From Granulicella sp. (GTDB lineage Bacteria > Acidobacteriota > Terriglobia > Terriglobales > Acidobacteriaceae): 39,260 bases of DNA. The stretch lies in NCBI GenBank assembly GCA_027339965.1, contig DAHWNL010000017.1:1-39260 (forward strand), in the 5' to 3' direction. Shown in pieces: positions 22,504 through 31,726 of the stretch. The position numbers and the translations under genes are program-made. The notes below the pieces were generated by a model. It searched no databases. It was not told the DNA's origin and saw nothing but the letters and a program-made list of their open reading frames with translations. How positions within the stretch are numbered: the stretch's first letter is position 1; every line of letters begins with the position of its first letter.

Positions 22504-24501
22504 ATGAAGATTCGGAGTTCCTTGTTCACCCACCCGGCCCGCCACCTCGCCTTTCTCGCCCCGGCTGCTCTCCTCCTGCTGGGCTTTGTCGCCGCATCAC
22601 CCGCACTCCAGGCTCAGGCCTCTGCCGCATCCGCCACGAACAACGCCGGGTCGGCGGCCTCCGCTCCTGCCCAGGCTGCGGCTGCCCCGAGCCATGCGGA
22701 GAAAAAGAAGAAGCACCACTTCAAGCTGTTCAACGCCCAGCGAATTGAACCTGCCACAGTAACCGCCAAGGCGCAGTCCTCAGACACAGGGGCGAAGGCG
22801 GGAAAAAAGAACAAGCCGCATGAGGCGCACGTCAAGGTAGCGAAAGCCGATCGCATTCAGGAGACCAAGGGCACCAAGGCAGAGTTGAAGAAGGAAGCCA
22901 AGTACAATCCCCTGATCGGCAAGGACTCGCAACTGCCGGACAAGCAGCTCTACGACAAAGCCATGGCGCAAATTGCCAGCGGTCACTATGACATCGGCAG
23001 GCTGGACATGCAGGCCCTGCTGGATACCTACCCCGACTCGCAGTACATGATGCGGGCCAAGCTGGCCATCGCCGATGCCTGGTACAAGGAGGGGGGAAGC
23101 GCGGCCTACACCGAAGCCGCGCAGGAGTATCGCGATTTCATCACCTTCTTCCCCAACGTTCCAGAGGCATCCGAGGCCCAGTTGCGGATCGGCGACATCG
23201 ACTTCAAGCAGATGAACGTCCCCGGCCGTGACTACTCCAAGGCGGAGCAGGCCGAGCAGGAGTACCGGACGATGCTGACGCAGTATCCGGACGCGCCCAA
23301 GCCCATTCTGGACGAGGCCCGCCAGAAGCTGCGCGAGGTGCAGGAGATTCTGGCTGAGCGGGAGGCGCAGATCGGCGACTTCTATGCCTCGGAGTCCAAC
23401 TGGCCGGCTGCCATTGCGCGCTACGAGACGGTGGTGGAGACTTATCCGCTGTACAGCCACATGGACGATGTGCTCATCGGCATCGGCGACGCGTATGAGG
23501 CAGAGGCATCGGCAGTGCGCGCTGAGCCCACCTGTACCGCGAACACCACAAAGGGAACTGCCTGCCTTCCGGAGGCCGTCAAAGGCCGTCTGCTTCAGGA
23601 CTATGACGGCAAGGCCGCCCAGAGCTACCGCGCCGTGGTGCTGTATCACTCCGCCGCGCCCCACGCGGAGGAGGCCAAAGAGCGCCTGACGGGCATGAAT
23701 CTTCCCATCCCGACGCCCACCAAGGAAGAGGCCGAGCTGAGCGACGAGCTGGAGAACAGCCGCGCCCCATACAGCTTGCAGAAGCGCATTGAGGTCCTCT
23801 TCATGCAGTCCCCGAACACGGTGACGACGGCCCGCATCGGCCTGCCGCCGCTACAGGATCCTCCACCGGTGCTGGCTCCCACGATCGTCAAGGAGTTGAT
23901 GACGGATTACAAAGATGCCTACAATCCCAACCTGGCCAAGGCGCACCCGGAGCTGAAGGAGAGCGAGGTCTATACGAAATCGGGAGAGACGGCGGCAGCT
24001 TCCGCGCCCGCCCCGGCCTCCACAGCGCCGCCTACGCTGGAGAGCATACCCACCGAGGGCTCCGCGGCAGCGATGAGTAACGACAAGACCGTCACCGTCG
24101 TCGAGCCGGCCAACAACTCCTCGGGAGGTTCGGGGACGGGTCTGGGTGTGGATGTCATCACCCCCGGCTCGGAGGGCGGCTCGAATGCCACCGGCACCCC
24201 GGCCAGCAACCTCCCCTCTGCCACCGGCGCCCAGGATCCAAACTATGGGCTGCCCATGCCCAAGCCTGCGGCCAAGGCTCTGCCGCCCATCGAGAAGCCC
24301 ACTGAGGCTCCCGATCAGGTGAATGACGTGGAGGGACAAGCCACGCCCGTGGCCGAGATCGCCCCGGCCAGCACGAACAGCACCGTGAGCGGCAAGAAGA
24401 AAAAGGGCAAAAAGAAGAAAGCTCAGAAGATTGACAAGAACGATGAGAGTTCCAGCCGAAATAAGCCGAAGCATGGCCTGGACAAACTGAATCCCTTTTA
24501 G
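22504..24501 (+). CDS. bamD: Outer membrane protein assembly factor BamD-like TPR protein with long low-complexity extensions
   Basis: Signal peptide; PDKQLYDKA...LLDTYPDS.Y...AKLAIADAWY, Y.DFITFFPN, LAERE..IG.FY....NW.AA..RY..V...YP; Pro/Thr/Ser-rich and Lys-rich tail. Confidence 0.82.
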   Translation: MKIRSSLFTHPARHLAFLAPAALLLLGFVAASPALQAQASAASATNNAGSAASAPAQAAAAPSHAEKKKKHHFKLFNAQRIEPATVTAKAQSSDTGAKAGKKNKPHEAHVKVAKADRIQETKGTKAELKKEAKYNPLIGKDSQLPDKQLYDKAMAQIASGHYDIGRLDMQALLDTYPDSQYMMRAKLAIADAWYKEGGSAAYTEAAQEYRDFITFFPNVPEASEAQLRIGDIDFKQMNVPGRDYSKAEQAEQEYRTMLTQYPDAPKPILDEARQKLREVQEILAEREAQIGDFYASESNWPAAIARYETVVETYPLYSHMDDVLIGIGDAYEAEASAVRAEPTCTANTTKGTACLPEAVKGRLLQDYDGKAAQSYRAVVLYHSAAPHAEEAKERLTGMNLPIPTPTKEEAELSDELENSRAPYSLQKRIEVLFMQSPNTVTTARIGLPPLQDPPPVLAPTIVKELMTDYKDAYNPNLAKAHPELKESEVYTKSGETAAASAPAPASTAPPTLESIPTEGSAAAMSNDKTVTVVEPANNSSGGSGTGLGVDVITPGSEGGSNATGTPASNLPSATGAQDPNYGLPMPKPAAKALPPIEKPTEAPDQVNDVEGQATPVAEIAPASTNSTVSGKKKKGKKKKAQKIDKNDESSSRNKPKHGLDKLNPF

Positions 24502-24557
24502 TGACGAAATGGGTTCTGCGTTGGGGCTCCCCGGGCAGATTGTCAACTGCTCCCTTG

Positions 24558-24602
24558 AAGTGCGGCGGCCACGGCAACTCCACGCCGTGGCCGCCGCGCT
24601 TT
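24558..24602 (+). terminator. Strong hairpin after bamD (14-bp perfect stem)
   Basis: gcggcggccacggc-aactccac-gccgtggccgccgc followed by gcttt. Confidence 0.65.
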
Positions 24603-24676
24603 GAAGAAGGCTCTCGCAGGCGGAGATGGCCTCGGCTCGCCGGCAAGGAAGGAGATTGGCGACCGGGGAGCGGCGG

Positions 24677-24705
24677 TTGCGCTGCGTGGTTAGCCAATGT
24701 ACCAT
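24677..24705 (+). promoter_or_regulatory. Sigma-70-type promoter of the trp/aro/pro operon leader
   Basis: TTGCGC, 17 nt spacer, TACCAT; ends 8 nt before the leader ATG at 24714. Confidence 0.7.
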
Positions 24706-24713
24706 GGAAGACA

Positions 24714-24788
24714 ATGAAGCTGCTCTACAGCCCGCGATTTACCCCGTCGTTGCGCTACTGGCCTTGGCCAGCGGCATCGGTGGAGTAG
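24714..24788 (+). CDS. Attenuator leader peptide MKLLYSPRFTPSLRYWPWPAASVE (trpL-like, 24 aa)
   Basis: Short ORF between the promoter and a terminator upstream of trpB; Y-W-P-W-P codons at 24756-24770. Confidence 0.75.
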   Translation: MKLLYSPRFTPSLRYWPWPAASVE

Positions 24789-24835
24789 CCTCGCAGGGAG
24801 CTGAAGCAAAACATCCTGCGATCTCCAGATTCCCC

Positions 24836-24872
24836 GAGCCGCAACCCGATCAGGTTGCGGCTTTCGTGTTTT
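24836..24872 (+). terminator. Attenuator terminator hairpin upstream of trpB
   Basis: agccgcaacc-cgatca-ggttgcggct (10 bp perfect) plus ttcgtgtttt. Its 5' arm can alternatively pair with 24771-24780. Confidence 0.85.
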
Positions 24873-24897
24873 GGGGCGGCAGGCGAGGAATGAACGA

Positions 24898-26181
24898 ATG
24901 GCAGTTCAAGGACAGGCGATGGATTCGACAGCGGGTGCGAGGGGAATGATAGCCGGGGCGGCCCGAGAGGCATTGGGACGGTTTGGGGTCTATGGCGGGC
25001 GGTACGTCCCGGAAACCTTGATGGCCGCTCTGTTGGAGCTGGAGGCGGCCTATGCCGCGGCGCAGGCGGATCCGGCCTTCCACGCCGAGCTGAATGGGCT
25101 GTTGAAGGACTACTGCGGCCGGCCGACCCCGCTGTACCTTGCCCGGCGGCTGAGCGAGATGCTGGGTGGAGCGCGGATCTACCTGAAGCGCGAGGACTTA
25201 CTGCACACCGGAGCGCACAAGATCAACAACGCGCTGGGCCAGGCGCTGCTGGCGCGACGGATGGGCAAGCAGCGGATCATCGCCGAGACCGGAGCCGGGC
25301 AGCATGGCGTGGCCACGGCGACGGTCTGCGCCCTGTTTGGCATGGAGTGCGTGGTGTACATGGGCGAGGAAGACATGCGGCGGCAGGAGCTGAACGTCTT
25401 CCGGATGCGCCTGCTGGGCGCGGAGGTGCGTGGGGTAAGTGCGGGTTCGGCCACGCTGAAGGACGCCATCAATGAAGCCATGCGCGATTGGGTGACCAAC
25501 GTGCGGTCGAGCTTTTACATTCTTGGCTCGGCGCTGGGCGCGCATCCGTATCCGACCATGGTGCGGGACTTTCAGCGCGTGATCTCGCGGGAGAGCAAGC
25601 GCCAGATTCTGGAGCAGGCCGGGCGGCTGCCGGATGCGGTGATTGCCTGCGTGGGCGGAGGATCCAATGCGATTGGAGCCTTCTATGAGTACATCCCCGA
25701 AGAGAACGTGGCGCTGATCGGCGTGGAGGCCGGCGGACGCGGTCAGGGGCTGGGCGAACATGCGGCGCGGTTTGCCCAGCAGGGCGGCGGAGTCCCGGGG
25801 GTGTTGCAGGGAACCTACAGCTATGTACTGCAAGATGAAGCGGGACAGATTGCGGCGACCCACTCCGTGAGCGCCGGGCTGGACTATGCCAGCGTAGGGC
25901 CGGAGCATGCCATGCTGCATGACTCCGGCCGGGCCACCTACACCAGCGCCACGGATGCCGAGGCGCTGGAGGCCACCAGGGTGTTGAGCCGCACGGAGGG
26001 GATTATTCCCGCGCTGGAGAGCGCCCATGCCATCGCCGAGGTGATCAAGTTTGCTCCCCGGCTGGGCAGGGAGAAGGTGGTGATGGTGAACGTGAGCGGA
26101 CGCGGCGATAAAGACATGGGGATCCTGACCCGTGAGTTGGACCGGAGCGGCGAGGCGATGGGAAAGGTGAGTGCGCGGTAA
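24898..26181 (+). CDS. trpB: Tryptophan synthase beta chain
   Basis: [30 protein letters not shown] (PLP Lys), [41 protein letters not shown]. Confidence 0.97.
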
Positions 26182-26957
26182 TGGCGATCGCATTCAAAAA
26201 GAGACCGGGCCTGGTGATCTACCTGACGGCCGGGGATCCGGATCTGGAGACGACGCGGTTGATGGCGATCGAGGCGATCGACGCGGGAGCGGATGTGATC
26301 GAACTTGGCGTTCCGTTCAGCGATCCGCTGGCGGACGGGCCGGTGATCCAGAGGGCAAGCCAGCGGGCGGTACTGCGCGGGACGCGCTTGGAAGATGTGC
26401 TGAGAGTGTGCCGGGAGATTCGCGCGGCGCGGCCGCAGGCGGGTTTACTGCTGTTCAGCTATCTGAATCCGGTGCTGCGGATGGGGCTGGAGAAGTTTGC
26501 CCGGGCGGCCAGAGATGCGGGCGCCGACGGCGTGCTGCTGACCGACATGATTGTGGAAGAAGCCGAAGAGTATCGCCGGGTGATGCGTCAGGCGGGGCTG
26601 ATGCCGGTATTTCTGGCCGCTCCCACCTCCCCGGATGAGCGCTTGCAGGCTATCGCCGAGGCCTGTGAGGGATTTGTGTACGCGATCTCTCGGGTGGGCA
26701 TCACCGGAACCCAGGCGGAGCTGGCCGGGGATGCCGAGGCGCTGGTGAGGCGCCTGCGCAGGTTCACCCAGCTACCGATTGCGCTGGGCTTTGGGGTGTC
26801 CACGCAGGAGCATGTGCGGGCGCTGGGAGAGTTTGCTGATGCGGCCGTGGTGGGCAGCGCGATTGTAGGGTTGATTGAGCGGACGCCGGCAGAGCAGGCC
26901 CCGCGAGCGGTCGGCGAGTTGGTGCAACAACTCTGCGGAGGAGCAAAAACCGCATGA
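26181..26957 (+). CDS. trpA: Tryptophan synthase alpha chain
   Basis: YLTAGDP, IELGVPFSDPLADGPVIQ, YLNP, GFVYAISRVGITG, GFGVS, VVGSAIV; TAATG overlap with trpB. Confidence 0.97.
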   Translation: MAIAFKKRPGLVIYLTAGDPDLETTRLMAIEAIDAGADVIELGVPFSDPLADGPVIQRASQRAVLRGTRLEDVLRVCREIRAARPQAGLLLFSYLNPVLRMGLEKFARAARDAGADGVLLTDMIVEEAEEYRRVMRQAGLMPVFLAAPTSPDERLQAIAEACEGFVYAISRVGITGTQAELAGDAEALVRRLRRFTQLPIALGFGVSTQEHVRALGEFADAAVVGSAIVGLIERTPAEQAPRAVGELVQQLCGGAKTA

Positions 26958-27140
26958 GCCGCCGTCCGAGCACGTATCATGAGAGCAGACCGTTCGAAGC
27001 AGCGCAGCCTCCGGCTGAACACCAGAGCCCCGCCCGGGGAGCGATGCCGGCGATGCCAGTGAAACAAGCACCTCCGGCGAAACAGAGTGAAGTTGCCGGG
27101 CTATCTTCGCGAGACCCGCGGGCTCGCTCGATGAGGAAGC

Positions 27141-27404
27141 ATGGAAATCTCCGATTGGCGTAACAGGATTGATGAGCTGGATGAGCAGATCGTGCAGTTG
27201 CTTTCGCAGCGTGCGGCGGCGGCAGTGGAGATAGGGAGGCTGAAGCAGAGCCGGAGCGCTCCCATCTACGAGCCGCAGCGCGAGAAGGACGTGATTGAGC
27301 ACGTGCAGAAGGTAAATCCGGGTCCACTCTCAGGAGCGCAGGTGCAGGACATCTACGAGCGGCTGATGGATGTGATGCGGGAGTTGCAACGCCAGCGTCC
27401 ATAA
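27141..27404 (+). CDS. Monofunctional AroQ-type chorismate mutase
   Basis: WRNRIDELDEQIVQLLSQR......IGRLK......YEPQREKDV; GAGGA RBS. Confidence 0.9.
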   Translation: MEISDWRNRIDELDEQIVQLLSQRAAAAVEIGRLKQSRSAPIYEPQREKDVIEHVQKVNPGPLSGAQVQDIYERLMDVMRELQRQRP

Positions 27405-27488
27405 TATCGGCGGCGCGGCTGGAGCAGCGATGGGCCGCGCCGGCAGGGCAAATGAAAATCCTATTCAGGAGCACAGAGGAATCCAGTG

Positions 27489-28532
27489 ATGATCGTAGCG
27501 ATGCAGGATCAGGCCACCGATGAACAGATACAGCAGGTGATTGAGCGGATGGTCGAGCTGGGCTTCAACGTCCATCGCACCACCGGAGAGGTGCAGACCA
27601 TCCTTGCGGGGGTGGGAACGCCGGCGCACTTTGAGGTGACGGAGTTCCAGGTGTTGGCCGGCGTGGCGCAGGCCTACCGCATCTCGTCGCCCTACAAGCT
27701 GGCCGGGCGCGGGTTTCGGCCGGAGGGCACCAAGGTGACGTTTCCCAACGGCCTGGTGGTTGGCGGCGAAGATGTGGTGATCATGGCCGGACCCTGTTCG
27801 GTGGAGAGCCGCGAGCAGATTCGCCTGAGCGCGCAGCAGGTGGCGGCCTCCGGCGGCCAGTTCCTGCGCGGAGGGGCCTTCAAGCCGCGCAGCTCGCCCT
27901 ACAGCTTCCAGGGCATGGGAGTGGAAGGACTGCAACTGATGCGCGAGGCTGCCGATGAGACCGGGCTGCTGGTGATCACGGAGGTGATGGAGATCTCGCA
28001 GATTGAGCTGATGCTGCCCTACATCGACTGCTTCCAGGTGGGCGCGCGCAACATGCAGAACTTCAACCTGCTGCGCGAGCTGGGGCATGTGCGCAAGCCG
28101 GTGCTGCTCAAACGCGGCATTGCGGCCACCATCGAAGAGCTGCTGCTGAGCGCGGAATACATCCTCTCCGGCGGCAACTACGACCTGATGCTCTGCGAAC
28201 GCGGCATTCGCACCTTTGAGACCTACACGCGCAACACGATGGATATCTCGGCGATTCCGGTGCTGAAAAAGCTGACCCACCTGCCGGTGCTGGGCGACCC
28301 ATCGCATGGCGTAGGCAAGCGCGACCTGGTGCCGCCGATGGCGCTGGCCGCGGTCGCCGCCGGGGCGGATGGCCTGCTGATGGAGATGCATCCCAATCCG
28401 GACAAAGCACTCTCTGACGGAGCGCAGTCTCTCTTCCCGGAGCAGTTGACCCATCTGGTGGAGAAGCTGCGCAGGCTCGCGCCGATCGTCGAGCGCGCCA
28501 TAGCGCCGGCGGTGTCACAGATTCATGCTTAG
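27489..28532 (+). CDS. aroF: DAHP synthase (type I-beta, with N-terminal regulatory domain)
   Basis: MAGPCSVES, LRGGAFKPRSSPYSFQG, QVGARNMQNF, KPVLLKRG, CERGIRTFE..TRNT.D, DPSHG, EMHPNP..ALSDG.QSL. Confidence 0.95.
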   Translation: MIVAMQDQATDEQIQQVIERMVELGFNVHRTTGEVQTILAGVGTPAHFEVTEFQVLAGVAQAYRISSPYKLAGRGFRPEGTKVTFPNGLVVGGEDVVIMAGPCSVESREQIRLSAQQVAASGGQFLRGGAFKPRSSPYSFQGMGVEGLQLMREAADETGLLVITEVMEISQIELMLPYIDCFQVGARNMQNFNLLRELGHVRKPVLLKRGIAATIEELLLSAEYILSGGNYDLMLCERGIRTFETYTRNTMDISAIPVLKKLTHLPVLGDPSHGVGKRDLVPPMALAAVAAGADGLLMEMHPNPDKALSDGAQSLFPEQLTHLVEKLRRLAPIVERAIAPAVSQIHA

Positions 28533-29382
28533 AATCGGCAAGGAGATAGCGCTGCACCGGATTGTGGTCAAACTCGGAACCAACGTCATCATGCGGCAGG
28601 ATGGCAAGGTGGCGCTGGGCCTGCTGTGCGGCCTGGTGGAACAGATCGCCGAGCTGCGCGCGCAGGGCGTCGAGGTTCTGGTGGTGAGCTCGGGGGCCAT
28701 TGGGCTGGGAATGGAGCGGTTGGGGCTGCGGGAGCGGCCGACCGTGCTCTCCCAGATACAGGCCTGCGCCGCCATTGGACAGTCGCGGCTGATGTCGCTC
28801 TACGACGACGCCTTCGATCAGCTCGGCTGCCCCATAGCCCAGGTGTTGCTTACCGAGGACGACTTCCGGGACGCGGTGCGCCATGCGAATCTGCGCGCCG
28901 CGTTGGATGCCCTGCTCACGATGGGGGTGATTCCCATCGTGAATGAGAACGATACGGTCTCCACCATCGAGCTGGAACGATCCACGGAGTACAAGCCGCG
29001 AGAGCGGATCTTTGGAGACAACGACAAACTCTCCGCTCTGCTGCTGAAGCACATCGGAGCGGATCTGCTGGTGCTGCTCTCCGATGTGGATGGCTTGTAT
29101 GATCGCCATCCAGGCGAGCCAGGAGCCACGCTGATTCCGCGCGTGGAAGCAGTGGATGAGAAGATTCTGTCTCTGGCCAATGGAAGCAACGGGCGTGGAC
29201 GCGGAGGGATGGTCTCCAAGCTCGAGTCGGCGCGCATTGTGCTGCATGCGGGCAAGCAGGTGATGATTGCCAACGGACGCACGCCGCATGTGCTGGAGCG
29301 AATCGTCTCCGGCGAGAGCTTAGGTACGCGGTTTGCTCCGGCGCAGCCCAGGTCGGGAGCCATGCTGATGGAGGAGATTTGA
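28525..29382 (+). CDS. proB: Glutamate 5-kinase (short form, no PUA domain)
   Basis: RIVVKLGT, VVSSGAIG.G, AAIGQSRL, AQVLLT, IPIVNENDTV, FGDNDKLSA, LLSDVDGLY, GRGGM.SK. Confidence 0.94.
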   Translation: MLRIGKEIALHRIVVKLGTNVIMRQDGKVALGLLCGLVEQIAELRAQGVEVLVVSSGAIGLGMERLGLRERPTVLSQIQACAAIGQSRLMSLYDDAFDQLGCPIAQVLLTEDDFRDAVRHANLRAALDALLTMGVIPIVNENDTVSTIELERSTEYKPRERIFGDNDKLSALLLKHIGADLLVLLSDVDGLYDRHPGEPGATLIPRVEAVDEKILSLANGSNGRGRGGMVSKLESARIVLHAGKQVMIANGRTPHVLERIVSGESLGTRFAPAQPRSGAMLMEEI

Positions 29383-30836
29383 GCCGAGGTCAGAGACCGG
29401 GTAAGAGCCCAGCTCGCAGACCGGATGAGAGCCCAGGTCGGAGACCAGATCAAGGCTCGGCTGGGATCTCGTTTGGGATCTCGGCTGGGATCTCGGCTGG
29501 GTCTTCTCATGATGCCGCCGCAGCGGGCGAGCGCGCTGAAACGCGCGCCGTGGTGGAGGCTGCCAGACGGGCCTCGCGCGTGCTGGCCACTCTGGCTGAC
29601 GTAACCCGCAACCGGGCGCTGGAGGCGATGGCGGCTGCCCTGGAGCCGGCGGCAGCGCCGTTGCTCAATGCCAACGCAGAGGATCTGCGCGCGGCCGCAG
29701 AGAGCCTGAGCCCGGCGACGCTGGCCCGGCTGCAGTTGAGCCAGGCCAAGCTGGCAGAGATGGCCGAACAGGTGCGCTCCGTCGCTGGTCTGCCGGACCC
29801 GCTGGGGCGGGTGCTGGATGCGATCGAGCTGGATGAAGGATTGCATCTGACCCGGGTGAGCGTTCCGCTAGGTGTGGTGGGCGTTATCTTTGAGGCGCGG
29901 CCGGATGCGGTGACGCAGATTGCAGCCCTGGCCGTGAAGTCCGGCAACGCTGTGATTCTGAAGGCGGGACGAGAGGTCGAAGAGACGGCGAGCGTGCTGG
30001 TGCAGGTGTTACGCTCGGCCTTGGAGAGCTGTGGCTTGCCCGCGGATGCGGTGTCCCTGCTGCGAGGGAGAGAACGCGCCCAGGAGTTGTTGGCGATGCA
30101 CGACCTGGTGGATCTGATGATTCCGCGCGGATCCAAGGCGCTGGTGGAGTATGTGCAGGCAAATACACGCATACCGGTGCTGGGCCACGCCGAGGGAATC
30201 TGCCACATCTATGTGGACCAGCGCGTGGACGAGGCGCTGGCGCTACGGGTGATCGCGGATGCCAAGATGGACTACCCGGCGGCCTGCAACGCAGTGGAGA
30301 CGGTGCTGGTGCATCAGGCGATTGCGGCTGAGTTTTTACCCCGCCTGGCCGAGCATCTGCGCGCGCGCGGCGTCGTGCTGCATGGCGATGCCACCGTGCG
30401 GGGGCTGCTGCGCGGCTTTGAGGTGGAAGCGATAACGGATTGGCATACCGAGTACGGCGAGCCGGCCATCTCTTTGGGAGTGGTGGCCTCGCTGGAGGAC
30501 GCGATCAGGCACATCCATGCGCATGGGTCGGCCCATACGGAGAGCATCCTGAGCAGCGACCCGGAGGCGGCGGAGAAGTTTCTGCGCGAAGTGGACGCCT
30601 CCAGCGTGATGCACAATGCGTCGACGCGCTTTGCGGATGGGTTCCGCTACGGATTCGGCGCTGAGGTAGGCAGCAGCACCAGCAAGCTGCATGCGCGCGG
30701 CCCGGTGGGGCTGGAGGGGTTGACGACCTACAAGTTCTTGTTGCGCGGCACGGGACAGGTAGCCGGAGACTATCGGGCCGACAAGGAGACCGGCCGGACG
30801 GCGCGGACCTTTACGCACCGGCGGGAGCGCGGATGA
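29379..30836 (+). CDS. proA: Gamma-glutamyl phosphate reductase; TTG start overlaps the proB stop, N-terminal extension is repeat-encoded
   Basis: VPLGVVGVIFEARP, KSGNAVILK.G.E, DL.IPRGS, GICHIYVD, ACNAVETVLVH, HGSAHTE.I, NASTRFADGFRYGFGAEVG.ST.KLHARGPVGLEGLT. Confidence 0.94.
   Translation: MSRGQRPGKSPARRPDESPGRRPDQGSAGISFGISAGISAGSSHDAAAAGERAETRAVVEAARRASRVLATLADVTRNRALEAMAAALEPAAAPLLNANAEDLRAAAESLSPATLARLQLSQAKLAEMAEQVRSVAGLPDPLGRVLDAIELDEGLHLTRVSVPLGVVGVIFEARPDAVTQIAALAVKSGNAVILKAGREVEETASVLVQVLRSALESCGLPADAVSLLRGRERAQELLAMHDLVDLMIPRGSKALVEYVQANTRIPVLGHAEGICHIYVDQRVDEALALRVIADAKMDYPAACNAVETVLVHQAIAAEFLPRLAEHLRARGVVLHGDATVRGLLRGFEVEAITDWHTEYGEPAISLGVVASLEDAIRHIHAHGSAHTESILSSDPEAAEKFLREVDASSVMHNASTRFADGFRYGFGAEVGSSTSKLHARGPVGLEGLTTYKFLLRGTGQVAGDYRADKETGRTARTFTHRRERG
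29381..29503. repeat. Three degenerate 24-bp units followed by four 12-bp units (ctcggctgggat) at the proB/proA junction
   Basis: 24-bp units at 29381-29404, 29405-29428, 29429-29452; 12-bp units at 29456-67, 29468-79, 29480-91, 29492-503. Confidence 0.85.
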
Positions 30837-31726
30837 AAAGCGTGCTGGTGGTGGGAACCGGACTGATGGGCGCCTCCGTGGGATTGGCGCTCAAGGCCGG
30901 CGGCTTCGCAGGCGAGGTCATCGGCTGGGATGCCCGCGCGGAAGAGTTGGCCGAAGCGCAGCGGCGGGGAGCGATCGACCGCAAGCTGGCCGGCCGCGAA
31001 GCGGTATCGGAAACGGATGCGGATGTGGTGGTGCTGGCCACGCCGGTGCTGGCCATTCTGGACTGGATGGAGCGGTTGGCTCCGGCGCTGAAGCCGCACC
31101 AACTGGTGACCGACCTGGGCAGCACCAAGGCCGAGATCGCCGCGCGCGCCCAAAGGCTGTTTGGCCGGCCGGGACGAGCGGAGTTTCTTCCCGGACATCC
31201 CATGGCGGGCAAGGAGTCCGGCGGAGCGGCGCTGGCCGAAGCAACGCTGTTCCAGAACGCCGTGTGGCTGTTTGCGCCACCGGCAGGCGAGCCTAAGGCC
31301 GGGGAGCGAAACGCCGGGGAGCCGGAGTCAGCCCAAGCCTGGCGAGAGACGGTGAAGGGCTTTGGAGCCCAGGTGCGGGAGATGGATCCCCGGCAGCACG
31401 ACGAGGTCTGCGCCTGGGTGAGCCATCTGCCGCAGCTGCTCTCCACGGCCATCAGCGCGCTGTTGGAAGACCAGTTCGCCGCCGATGCCGAGGGCATGGC
31501 CGCCGTACAGGCGATCGGGGGCCGGGCGCTGCGAGAGATCACCCGCCTGGGCAGCAGCCCTTACAGCATGTGGCGGGATGTTGCCTTGACCAACACCGAG
31601 GCCATCGCGGCCGCGCTCTGGGCGCTGGAACAGCGTCTGGCCCATGTGCGGGAGAATCTGCGCACGCCGGAGCTGCGCGAGCAGTTCAGCCGCGCCAATC
31701 GCTTCCGCACGTCTCCGCGAAGCTGA
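30833..31726 (+). CDS. tyrA: Prephenate/arogenate dehydrogenase
   Basis: VGTGLMGASVGLAL, VVLATPV, VTDLGSTK, PGHPMAGKE..G, HDEVCAWVSHLPQL, TRL.SSPYSMWRDV; ATGA overlap with proA. Confidence 0.93.
   Translation: MKSVLVVGTGLMGASVGLALKAGGFAGEVIGWDARAEELAEAQRRGAIDRKLAGREAVSETDADVVVLATPVLAILDWMERLAPALKPHQLVTDLGSTKAEIAARAQRLFGRPGRAEFLPGHPMAGKESGGAALAEATLFQNAVWLFAPPAGEPKAGERNAGEPESAQAWRETVKGFGAQVREMDPRQHDEVCAWVSHLPQLLSTAISALLEDQFAADAEGMAAVQAIGGRALREITRLGSSPYSMWRDVALTNTEAIAAALWALEQRLAHVRENLRTPELREQFSRANRFRTSPRS

What the first reader, a model, noticed from the sequence alone, without database searches (positions are those of the whole stretch)
24677..24872. Unannotated ribosome-mediated attenuator whose leader peptide carries Phe, Tyr, Trp and Pro codons, upstream of a hybrid aromatic-plus-proline operon
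Seen in sequence: a promoter TTGCGC-N17-TACCAT (24677-24705); an ATG only 8 nt later with no room for an SD, so the leader is essentially leaderless; ORF MKLLYSPRFTPSLRYWPWPAASVE (24714-24788); and an intrinsic terminator (agccgcaacc/ggttgcggct plus U-rich tail) 25 nt before trpB. An alternative antiterminator is readable: GCGGCAUCGG (24771-80) pairs with CCGAGCCGC (24834-42, the terminator 5' arm), UGGAG (24781-85) with CUCCA (24823-27), and UCGCAGG (24791-97) with CCUGCGA (24815-21). A small CUGGC/GCCAG hairpin over the Trp codons could act as the anti-antiterminator. Established: this is the architecture of E. coli trp/phe/his attenuators. Inference: instead of tandem Trp codons, the control zone is Y-W-P-W-P preceded by Y, P, F, P. 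These are the amino acids made by the downstream genes (trpBA, CM, aroF, tyrA, proBA), suggesting one attenuator senses aromatic and possibly proline tRNA charging.
Basis: partly seen in the sequence, partly recalled or inferred. Interest (0 to 1): 0.82.

Follow-up and report, generated by a model that had tools for sequence, protein, structure and literature searches.

The report
Aromatic leader-peptide attenuator before trpB
A tiny conserved reading frame with Tyr and Trp codons (plus Phe in most relatives) and a transcription-stop hairpin sit in front of this soil bacterium's aromatic amino acid and proline genes, and they likely switch those genes on when ribosomes stall for lack of aromatic amino acids; this is a textbook kind of switch in an apparently uncatalogued family, and whether it also senses proline remains untested.

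Summary
The promoter-like site, 24-codon ORF, 1:2 hairpin, antiterminator and terminator are conserved before trpB across Acidobacteriaceae. In 149 of 150 leaders the first ATG after the -10 box is in frame. Hairpins 1:2 and 3:4 covary; the antiterminator is invariant, without covariation. Modelled stalls favour antitermination only at codons -3/-2 to +2/+3 around a conserved [F/Y]-R-Y-W core. Trp is fixed before trpBA (76 of 76) but not in non-trp paralogs (13 of 26).

An upstream Pro does track proBA (37 of 41 vs 0 of 41), but proBA was gained once and those C's pair with region-2 G's. Proline sensing is therefore open (about 0.2).

Verdict: a probable leaderless, multi-aromatic classical attenuator, with no Rfam match and no expression data. 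This scan met the family before on other DNA (the aroK copy in this genome; a CM-pheA-aroF-tyrA leader elsewhere).

The parts
24677..24682 (+). -35 box (TTGCGC) of a predicted sigma-70-type promoter
   Evidence: TTGC in 124 of 130 leaders with a promoter call
24700..24705 (+). -10 box (TACCAT); transcript start predicted near 24712-24714
   Evidence: -10 to ATG gap 6-10 nt in 145 of 149 leaders; start site not measured
24714..24788 (+). 24-codon leader-peptide ORF, near-leaderless; stop at codon +11 relative to the R of R-Y-W
   Evidence: first ATG after the -10 box in frame and open in 149 of 150 leaders, stop at +11 in 131 of 150
24744..24764 (+). Predicted control window, codons -3..+3 (P S L R Y W P); the conserved core R-Y-W is 24753-24761
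   Evidence: modelled stall positions; W at +2 in 76 of 76 and Y in the window in 76 of 76 trpB-linked genus leaders
24740..24787 (+). 1:2 hairpin (anti-antiterminator, possible pause hairpin), remodelled here around CUGGC/GCCAG 24758-24771
   Evidence: fold -19.6 kcal/mol but z only -0.56; covariation in relatives
24771..24785 (+). Region 2, 5' strand of the antiterminator (GCGGC core 24771-75)
   Evidence: core complementary to region 3 in 132 of 132 leaders, partly fixed by the search pattern; no covariation signal
24791..24821 (+). Variable internal hairpin closing the antiterminator
   Evidence: sequence varies in relatives
24830..24846 (+). Region 3, shared by the antiterminator and the terminator
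24836..24872 (+). Intrinsic terminator (3:4 stem 24836-24863 plus U tract)
   Evidence: pairs and T tail conserved in 127 of 132 leaders in which the script found the 3' arm; covariation
24898..26181 (+). trpB (start inferred from GAGGA at 24885-89)
   Evidence: TIGR00263 above cut-off
26181..26957 (+). trpA
   Evidence: TIGR00262
27141..27404 (+). chorismate mutase
   Evidence: TIGR01807 above cut-off
27486..28532 (+). DAHP synthase (aroF)
   Evidence: NF006421, TIGR01361
28525..29382 (+). proB, the only copy found in the genome
   Evidence: TIGR01027; tblastn
29379..30836 (+). proA (longest frame), the only copy found in the genome
   Evidence: NF001221, TIGR00407; tblastn
30833..31726 (+). 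prephenate dehydrogenase (tyrA)
   Evidence: prephenate dehydrogenase models, all below their curated cut-offs

Best explanation
A short conserved ORF followed by a terminator precedes the trpB-trpA-CM-aroF-proB-proA-tyrA operon and likely acts as a ribosome-mediated transcription attenuator that senses charged aromatic tRNAs. Shown: the sequence parts, their conservation, the in-frame ATG, covariation of hairpins 1:2 and 3:4, and the downstream genes. Inferred: transcription starts 0-4 nt before the ATG, so ribosomes load without a Shine-Dalgarno sequence. With plenty of Trp, Tyr and Phe the ribosome would run to the stop at codon +11, cover region 2 and let the 3:4 terminator form. When they are scarce it would stall in the [F/Y]-R-Y-W zone, hold region 1 and free GCGGC to pair with region 3 before region 4 is made, allowing read-through. 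Trp and Tyr are the likely signals in this genome, whose only Phe is at -5; Phe is a likely third signal in most relatives. The Pro codons most likely reflect C:G pairing and intrinsic slowing; proBA would ride along as a passenger.
For: Leader before trpB in 21 of 22 other same-genus loci; the 22nd is cut by a contig end and its leader lies on another contig. First ATG after an independently found -10 box is in frame and open in 149 of 150 leaders. Hairpins 1:2 and 3:4: 94.1% of cells paired, 6 pairs with changes on both sides, 0 of 500 shuffles reach the covariation score. In 126 leaders the antiterminator forms (P>0.5) in 88-98% for stalls at -2..+3 (cover to +11) or 94-98% at -3..+2 (cover to +15). 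It forms in 0% for stalls at +5 or later and in 14% with no ribosome. Among trpB-linked genus leaders, W at +2 is in 76 of 76, Y in the window in 76 of 76 and F in 62 of 76; genome frequencies are W 1.4%, Y 2.5%, F 3.6%. The same family precedes only aromatic-pathway genes wherever the first gene was labelled: aroK, aroF or CM in 24 of 26 non-trp loci. There W at +2 falls to 13 of 26, and none of the 5 CM-first leaders has W in the window. A paralog precedes shikimate kinase in this genome.
Against: No transcript, start-site, 3'-end or ribosome data (see Tried and rejected). The antiterminator has no covariation support (148 of 500 shuffles reach it), and its invariance is partly fixed by the search pattern. 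At full-length equilibrium the terminator wins at almost every ribosome position in this leader (P 0.95-1.0 at cover +11; -63.4 vs -59.3 kcal/mol), so read-through needs a kinetic step that was not modelled. In this genome the 1:2 hairpin is weak: P(2:3) is 0.94 with no ribosome and every stall from -6 to +3 is permissive, so the window may be wider and less specific here. Few control codons predict low sensitivity (PMC1183508, passages). R, the Ala pair and part of Y are explained by RNA pairing alone.
Confidence: 0.8

Rival explanations
1. The same attenuator also senses prolyl-tRNA: after proBA entered the operon, a Pro codon was fixed inside the stall window.
For: Pro at -3..-1 in 37 of 41 proBA+ vs 0 of 41 proBA- trpB leaders; in 57 of 63 proBA+ genus leaders vs 0 of 17 aroK paralogs of that genus; Pro in -3..+3 in 1 of 26 non-trp paralogs. 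These positions lie in or at the edge of the modelled window. The third codon position varies (at -2: CCG 25, CCC 4, CCT 2). proB and proA are single-copy, overlap their neighbours, and TTG..TAnnnT sites are rare between trpA and proB (0 of 65, 0 of 65, 3 of 65 gaps).
Against: proBA changes state twice on the tree (one gain, one nested loss); there are 2 independent pairs, p=1, and with window -3..+3 one pair goes each way. Four proBA+ leaders have Thr there. The CC of the Pro codon faces invariant GG of region 2 in 31 of 31. Pro is also higher outside the window in this clade (1.24 vs 0.46 per leader). E. coli-type pheL leaders carry Pro codons whose C's pair with downstream G's (PMC3082878, passages). 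proC lies elsewhere, with no model hit.
Confidence: 0.2
2. Only Trp (or Trp plus Tyr) is sensed; the Phe and extra Tyr codons are by-products of a pyrimidine-rich strand that must pair with region 2.
For: W is the only aromatic residue fixed in all 76 trpB-linked leaders, and this genome has no Phe in -3..+3. In C. glutamicum aroR (Phe-Tyr-Phe) Tyr had no effect (PMC11802643, passage). TAC pairs in hairpin 1:2.
Against: Paralogs before CM or aroF keep F/Y-rich windows (mean 4.5 F/Y/W in 7 codons) and 5 of 26 have no Trp at all. TAC/TAT and TTC/TAC interchange at +1 and -1 keeps an aromatic residue.
Confidence: 0.25
3. The leader is a translation-independent RNA switch (a riboswitch or protein-bound leader) or a general translation-rate sensor, and the codons are incidental.
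For: The RNA core is invariant. In this genome any stall from -6 to +3 is permissive and 2:3 forms without a ribosome.
Against: The frame is kept from the first ATG in 149 of 150 leaders, although the ATG-to-R distance varies from 11 to 16 codons; the stop is fixed at +11 in 131 of 150. TGG stays fixed where its third base is unpaired in 74 of 132. No Rfam family reaches its gathering score.
Confidence: 0.08

Closest known systems
Corynebacterium glutamicum aroR leader before aroF (Neshat et al. 2014, not read; as described in PMC11802643, passage)
   Same: Leader peptide with mixed aromatic codons (Phe-Tyr-Phe) controlling a DAHP-synthase operon by ribosome stalling.
   Different: Here a single Trp is added and the operon holds trpBA, CM, tyrA and proBA. 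Sequence homology to aroR was not tested.
Sinorhizobium meliloti trpL / rnTrpL before trpE(G) (PMC6614838, passages)
   Same: Leaderless attenuator RNA with three mutually exclusive stem-loops (SL1, antiterminator, terminator).
   Different: It controls trpE(G). Here trpE, trpD and trpCF lie elsewhere without a model hit, and Tyr and Phe codons flank one Trp.
E. coli trpL and pheL attenuators (PMC1183508 and PMC3082878, passages; Rfam Trp_leader and Phe_leader, names recalled)
   Same: 1:2, 2:3 and 3:4 logic; Pro codons in pheL whose C's pair with downstream G's.
   Different: Runs of one cognate codon and Shine-Dalgarno-led leaders (recalled). No match to any Rfam leader family at E up to 10.
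Leaderless polycysteine short ORFs of mycobacteria (bioRxiv 10.1101/834739, abstract and outline)
   Same: Leaderless sensory ORFs repeated before several operons of one pathway ('ribulon'), like the trpB and aroK copies here.
   Different: They act on translation through ribosome-binding-site sequestration and sense Cys; here there is an intrinsic terminator.

Membership tests
Ribosome-mediated (leader-peptide) transcription attenuator | Short conserved ORF upstream of a biosynthetic operon | tested here: met
   149 of 150 in frame from the first ATG after the -10 box; stop at +11 in 131 of 150
Ribosome-mediated (leader-peptide) transcription attenuator | Control codons cognate to the operon's products | tested here: met
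   W 76 of 76, Y 76 of 76, F 62 of 76; W relaxed to 13 of 26 before non-trp genes
Ribosome-mediated (leader-peptide) transcription attenuator | Intrinsic terminator before the first gene | tested here: met
Ribosome-mediated (leader-peptide) transcription attenuator | Mutually exclusive antiterminator | tested here: inconclusive
   Complementarity invariant but no covariation; the terminator wins at full-length equilibrium
Ribosome-mediated (leader-peptide) transcription attenuator | Control codons placed where a stalled ribosome frees region 2 | tested here: met
   Folding model only: permissive window -3/-2 to +2/+3 in 126 leaders
Ribosome-mediated (leader-peptide) transcription attenuator | Leader translated; read-through responds to amino-acid starvation; RNAP pause | not testable with these tools
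   No RNA holder listed; needs Ribo-seq, Term-seq and reporters
Rfam Trp_leader / Phe_leader families | Match to the covariance model | tested here: not met
   No such family among the 10 matches at E up to 10 in 24200-25100; none reaches a gathering score
Proline-sensing attenuator (no established family known to me) | Pro codons in the stall window track proline genes across independent events | tested here: inconclusive
   37 of 41 vs 0 of 41 but 2 independent pairs, p=1
Leaderless mRNA | Transcript start at or within a few bases of the AUG | tested here: inconclusive
   -10 to ATG gap 6-10 nt in 145 of 149; start site not mapped

The most novel reading that the evidence does not exclude
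An aromatic attenuator captured a proline operon and evolved a fourth input: when proBA entered the trpBA-CM-aroF-tyrA operon in one acidobacterial clade, a Pro codon was fixed in the stall window, giving one leader that reads Trp, Tyr, Phe and Pro tRNA charging across two unrelated pathways.
Probability: 0.2. Interest if true: 0.78.

Novelty: new member of a known kind. Interest (0 to 1): 0.48.

Why it matters
It gives a concrete, testable regulatory model for aromatic amino acid synthesis in a major soil phylum with almost no characterised regulation. The paralogs form a natural experiment in which control codons follow the downstream genes: Trp is fixed before trpBA and absent from the window of the CM-first leaders. 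The proBA insertion offers a rare chance to test whether an attenuator gains a new amino acid input after an operon captures genes from another pathway. The mechanism itself is textbook.

Tried and rejected
W-P-W-P as the control zone: rejected (1 of 156 leaders; +4 and +5 are non-permissive or borderline; the codons form the palindrome that builds this genome's remodelled hairpin). BLASTN of the leader across 401 family genomes was too insensitive (21 of 401, mostly short chance pieces), so a covariance model replaced it. Sequencing runs: no RNA holder listed. The 3 same-study RNA runs laid only short pieces under 95% alike inside trpB and none on the leader; this is no evidence either way. 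The strict promoter scan misses this promoter, so its blank inside the operon carries little weight. The terminator structure string evaluated was misregistered (-7.7 kcal/mol) and is discarded; searches give -20.1. The anchor choice picked the wrong Arg in several peptides and its codon tallies are discarded; one search replaces them. Searches timed out and were redone. One row of alignment A1 (L020) was mis-cut, so A1 was not used for pair counts. L181 (titled Fuerstiella) has no start codon or aromatic gene and was treated as a chance match. Rows dropped before counts: 14 duplicates of 149; L181, L226, L233; 6 more from the stall model (126 used); 9 of 80 fetched loci that the script could not anchor; L143, L150, L181 and 6 leaders without a promoter call. 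The output was cut around L095-L096; those genomes were covered again.

Full report
OBSERVATION. The leader ORF is 24714-24788. The terminator is 24836-24863 plus a T tail (-20.1 kcal/mol, z -4.96). The whole leader folds into the terminator state at -70.6 kcal/mol, z -2.5. The genes downstream are trpB, trpA, chorismate mutase, DAHP synthase, proB, proA and a prephenate dehydrogenase. No Rfam family reaches its gathering score in 24200-25100. The strict promoter scan does not list the promoter, so its support is comparative.

CONSERVATION. TrpB was found in 23 of 24 same-genus genomes. Of the 22 loci returned for them, 21 show the leader and one is cut by a contig end; that leader lies on another contig. 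Seven loci of a sister family have none. Of 29 further family loci found by TrpB, 8 showed a leader (output partly cut). Of 12 leaderless ones examined further, 11 show trpC- or trpF-like frames directly upstream (motif labels recalled) and none has a model hit before trpB. A pattern scan of genome contigs returned 120 loci, about 170 estimated, nearly all titled Acidobacteriaceae, Granulicella, Bryocella, Edaphobacter, Tunturiibacter, Terriglobus or Silvibacterium. That pattern fixes R-Y-W, so those rows cannot test the core. Of 135 unique leaders, 122 have trpB first, 1 has aroF and 12 have no labelled gene, mostly because the loci are short. A covariance model hits 95 of 101 genus genomes and 53 of 150 family genomes. 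These tallies include genomes flagged unpublished (G452; G042 and G065), from which no sequence was used.

TRANSLATION. With the promoter located independently of frame, the first ATG after the -10 box is in frame with R-Y-W and open in 149 of 150 leaders (156 examined, 6 without a promoter call). The gap is 6-10 nt in 145 of 149, the ATG-to-R distance is 11-16 codons, and the stop is at codon +11 in 131 of 150. This is strong evidence of selection on a translated, near-leaderless ORF. The start site itself is inferred.

RNA STRUCTURE. On 48 aligned leaders, hairpins 1:2 and 3:4 pair in 94.1% of cells with 6 pairs changed on both sides. No shuffle of 500 reaches the covariation score, and slid controls give 28-57% paired (kinship inflates the shuffle test). 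The antiterminator core is invariant, as expected for a strand shared by three helices, but has no covariation signal (148 of 500 shuffles).

STALL MODEL. Folding the RNA up to region 3 with a ribosome footprint, 126 leaders form the antiterminator in 88-98% of cases for A-site codons -2..+3 (cover to +11) or 94-98% for -3..+2 (cover to +15). They form it in 0% from +5 on and in 14% without a ribosome. This window is F-x-[F/Y]-R-Y-W-x. Two results limit the model. At full-length equilibrium the terminator wins almost everywhere in this leader (-63.4 vs -59.3 kcal/mol), so read-through depends on kinetics that were not modelled. And this genome and its three nearest relatives have a weak 1:2 (P(2:3) 0.72-0.97 without a ribosome), so here all stalls from -6 to +3 are permissive.

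WHICH AMINO ACIDS. Among 76 trpB-linked genus leaders, most of them found by the model rather than the pattern, W is at +2 in 76, Y is in the window in 76 and F in 62 (9 of 80 fetched loci were not anchored). Three more distant trpB leaders have W at -5 instead. The same family precedes shikimate kinase in this genome (G000:C82, E 9e-9) and aroK, aroF or chorismate mutase in 24 of 26 non-trp loci. There W at +2 falls to 13 of 26, five peptides have no W, and none of the five CM-first leaders has W in the window. Codon content thus follows the regulated genes, although kin are not independent. trpE, trpD, trpCF, pheA and proC lie on other contigs with no model hit (one search scored 150 of 1671 candidates). 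This genome's leader is atypical: Leu replaces the -1 Phe/Tyr, so Trp and Tyr are its likely main inputs.

PROLINE. proBA sits between aroF and tyrA in 20 of 20 genus loci long enough to tell and in 63 of 64 in the larger set. A Pro at -3..-1, however, is in 37 of 41 proBA+ and 0 of 41 proBA- leaders, and in 0 of 17 aroK paralogs of the genus. Against reading this as sensing: on a TrpB+TrpA+AroF FastTree proBA was gained once and lost once (L146), Pro changes 4 times, and the 2 independent pairs give p=1. Four proBA+ leaders have Thr there. The Pro CC faces invariant GG of region 2 in 31 of 31, the explanation already offered for Pro codons in pheL (PMC3082878, passages). Pro is also enriched outside the window in this clade. 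I put proline sensing at 0.2. proBA is probably co-transcribed: the genes overlap and promoter-like sites between them are rare.

COMPARISON WITH WHAT IS KNOWN. It works like E. coli trpL and pheL (PMC1183508, passages) but is not a member of their Rfam families. Mixed aromatic codons have a precedent in C. glutamicum aroR (PMC11802643, passage; PMC6892785, passages; Neshat 2014 not read). Leaderless attenuators have precedents in S. meliloti trpL (PMC6614838, passages) and mycobacterial polycysteine ORFs (bioRxiv 10.1101/834739, abstract and outline). Nine literature searches (listings only unless named) showed no description of this acidobacterial family. PMC2965389 (passages) notes that almost no predicted attenuators in Acidobacteria have assigned functions. 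PMC4833913 (passages) counts leader genes in Acidobacteria without naming this one in the passages seen. Their supplements and Lopatovskaya 2010 were not seen and may list it. Earlier notes of this scan describe the aroK copy of this genome, mention this copy, and describe a Phe/Tyr leader before CM-pheA-aroF-tyrA in another genome. They are leads, not support; I found the aroK paralog independently.

VERDICT. A real, conserved, probably leaderless multi-aromatic leader-peptide attenuator (confidence 0.8); a new member of a known kind. Its one unusual feature, a Pro codon that appears with proBA, is a single evolutionary event with an RNA-pairing alternative and needs a bench test. Interest 0.48.

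Noticed in passing
window 24554-24607: Very stable GC-rich hairpin (-47.6 kcal/mol, z -7.6) between the bamD-like gene and the promoter; it may end upstream transcription or be a REP-like repeat. Rfam gives only sub-threshold hairpin matches.
   Followed up: partly
G000:C82:36894-37018 (-), L251: Paralogous leader (F-S-Y-C-Y-W-Y core) with a promoter 8 nt before its ATG, upstream of shikimate kinase; 17 such aroK leaders in the genus.
   Followed up: yes
L259-L283, L143, L150: The same RNA family heads aroF, chorismate mutase and aroK operons in many other genera; the CM-first leaders lack Trp in the window.
   Followed up: partly
window 28525-30836: proBA is inserted between aroF and tyrA in one clade (one gain, one loss on the tree), while proC lies on another contig. 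Why proline genes joined an aromatic operon is unexplained.
   Followed up: partly
window 24740-24787; L031, L032, L058: This sub-clade has a weakened 1:2 hairpin; the model predicts read-through rather than termination when the leader is not translated.
   Followed up: partly
window 26954-27163: A 69-codon frame overlaps the trpA stop and the chorismate mutase start; probably not a gene.
   Followed up: no
L033, L034, L044, L047, L048, L049: Gaps of 0.3-2 kb between trpB-trpA, aroF-proB or proA-tyrA in relatives suggest further genes inserted into the operon.
   Followed up: no
L114-L117: In these genomes the leader sits between a trpF-like frame and trpB, i.e. inside the ancestral-looking trpC-trpF-trpB order; 12 other family loci examined have no leader there.
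   Followed up: partly
L197, L207: The leader occurs in records titled Verrucomicrobia and Sphingomonas; L197 nests within the acidobacterial tree, which suggests mis-binning or mis-labelling.
   Followed up: partly
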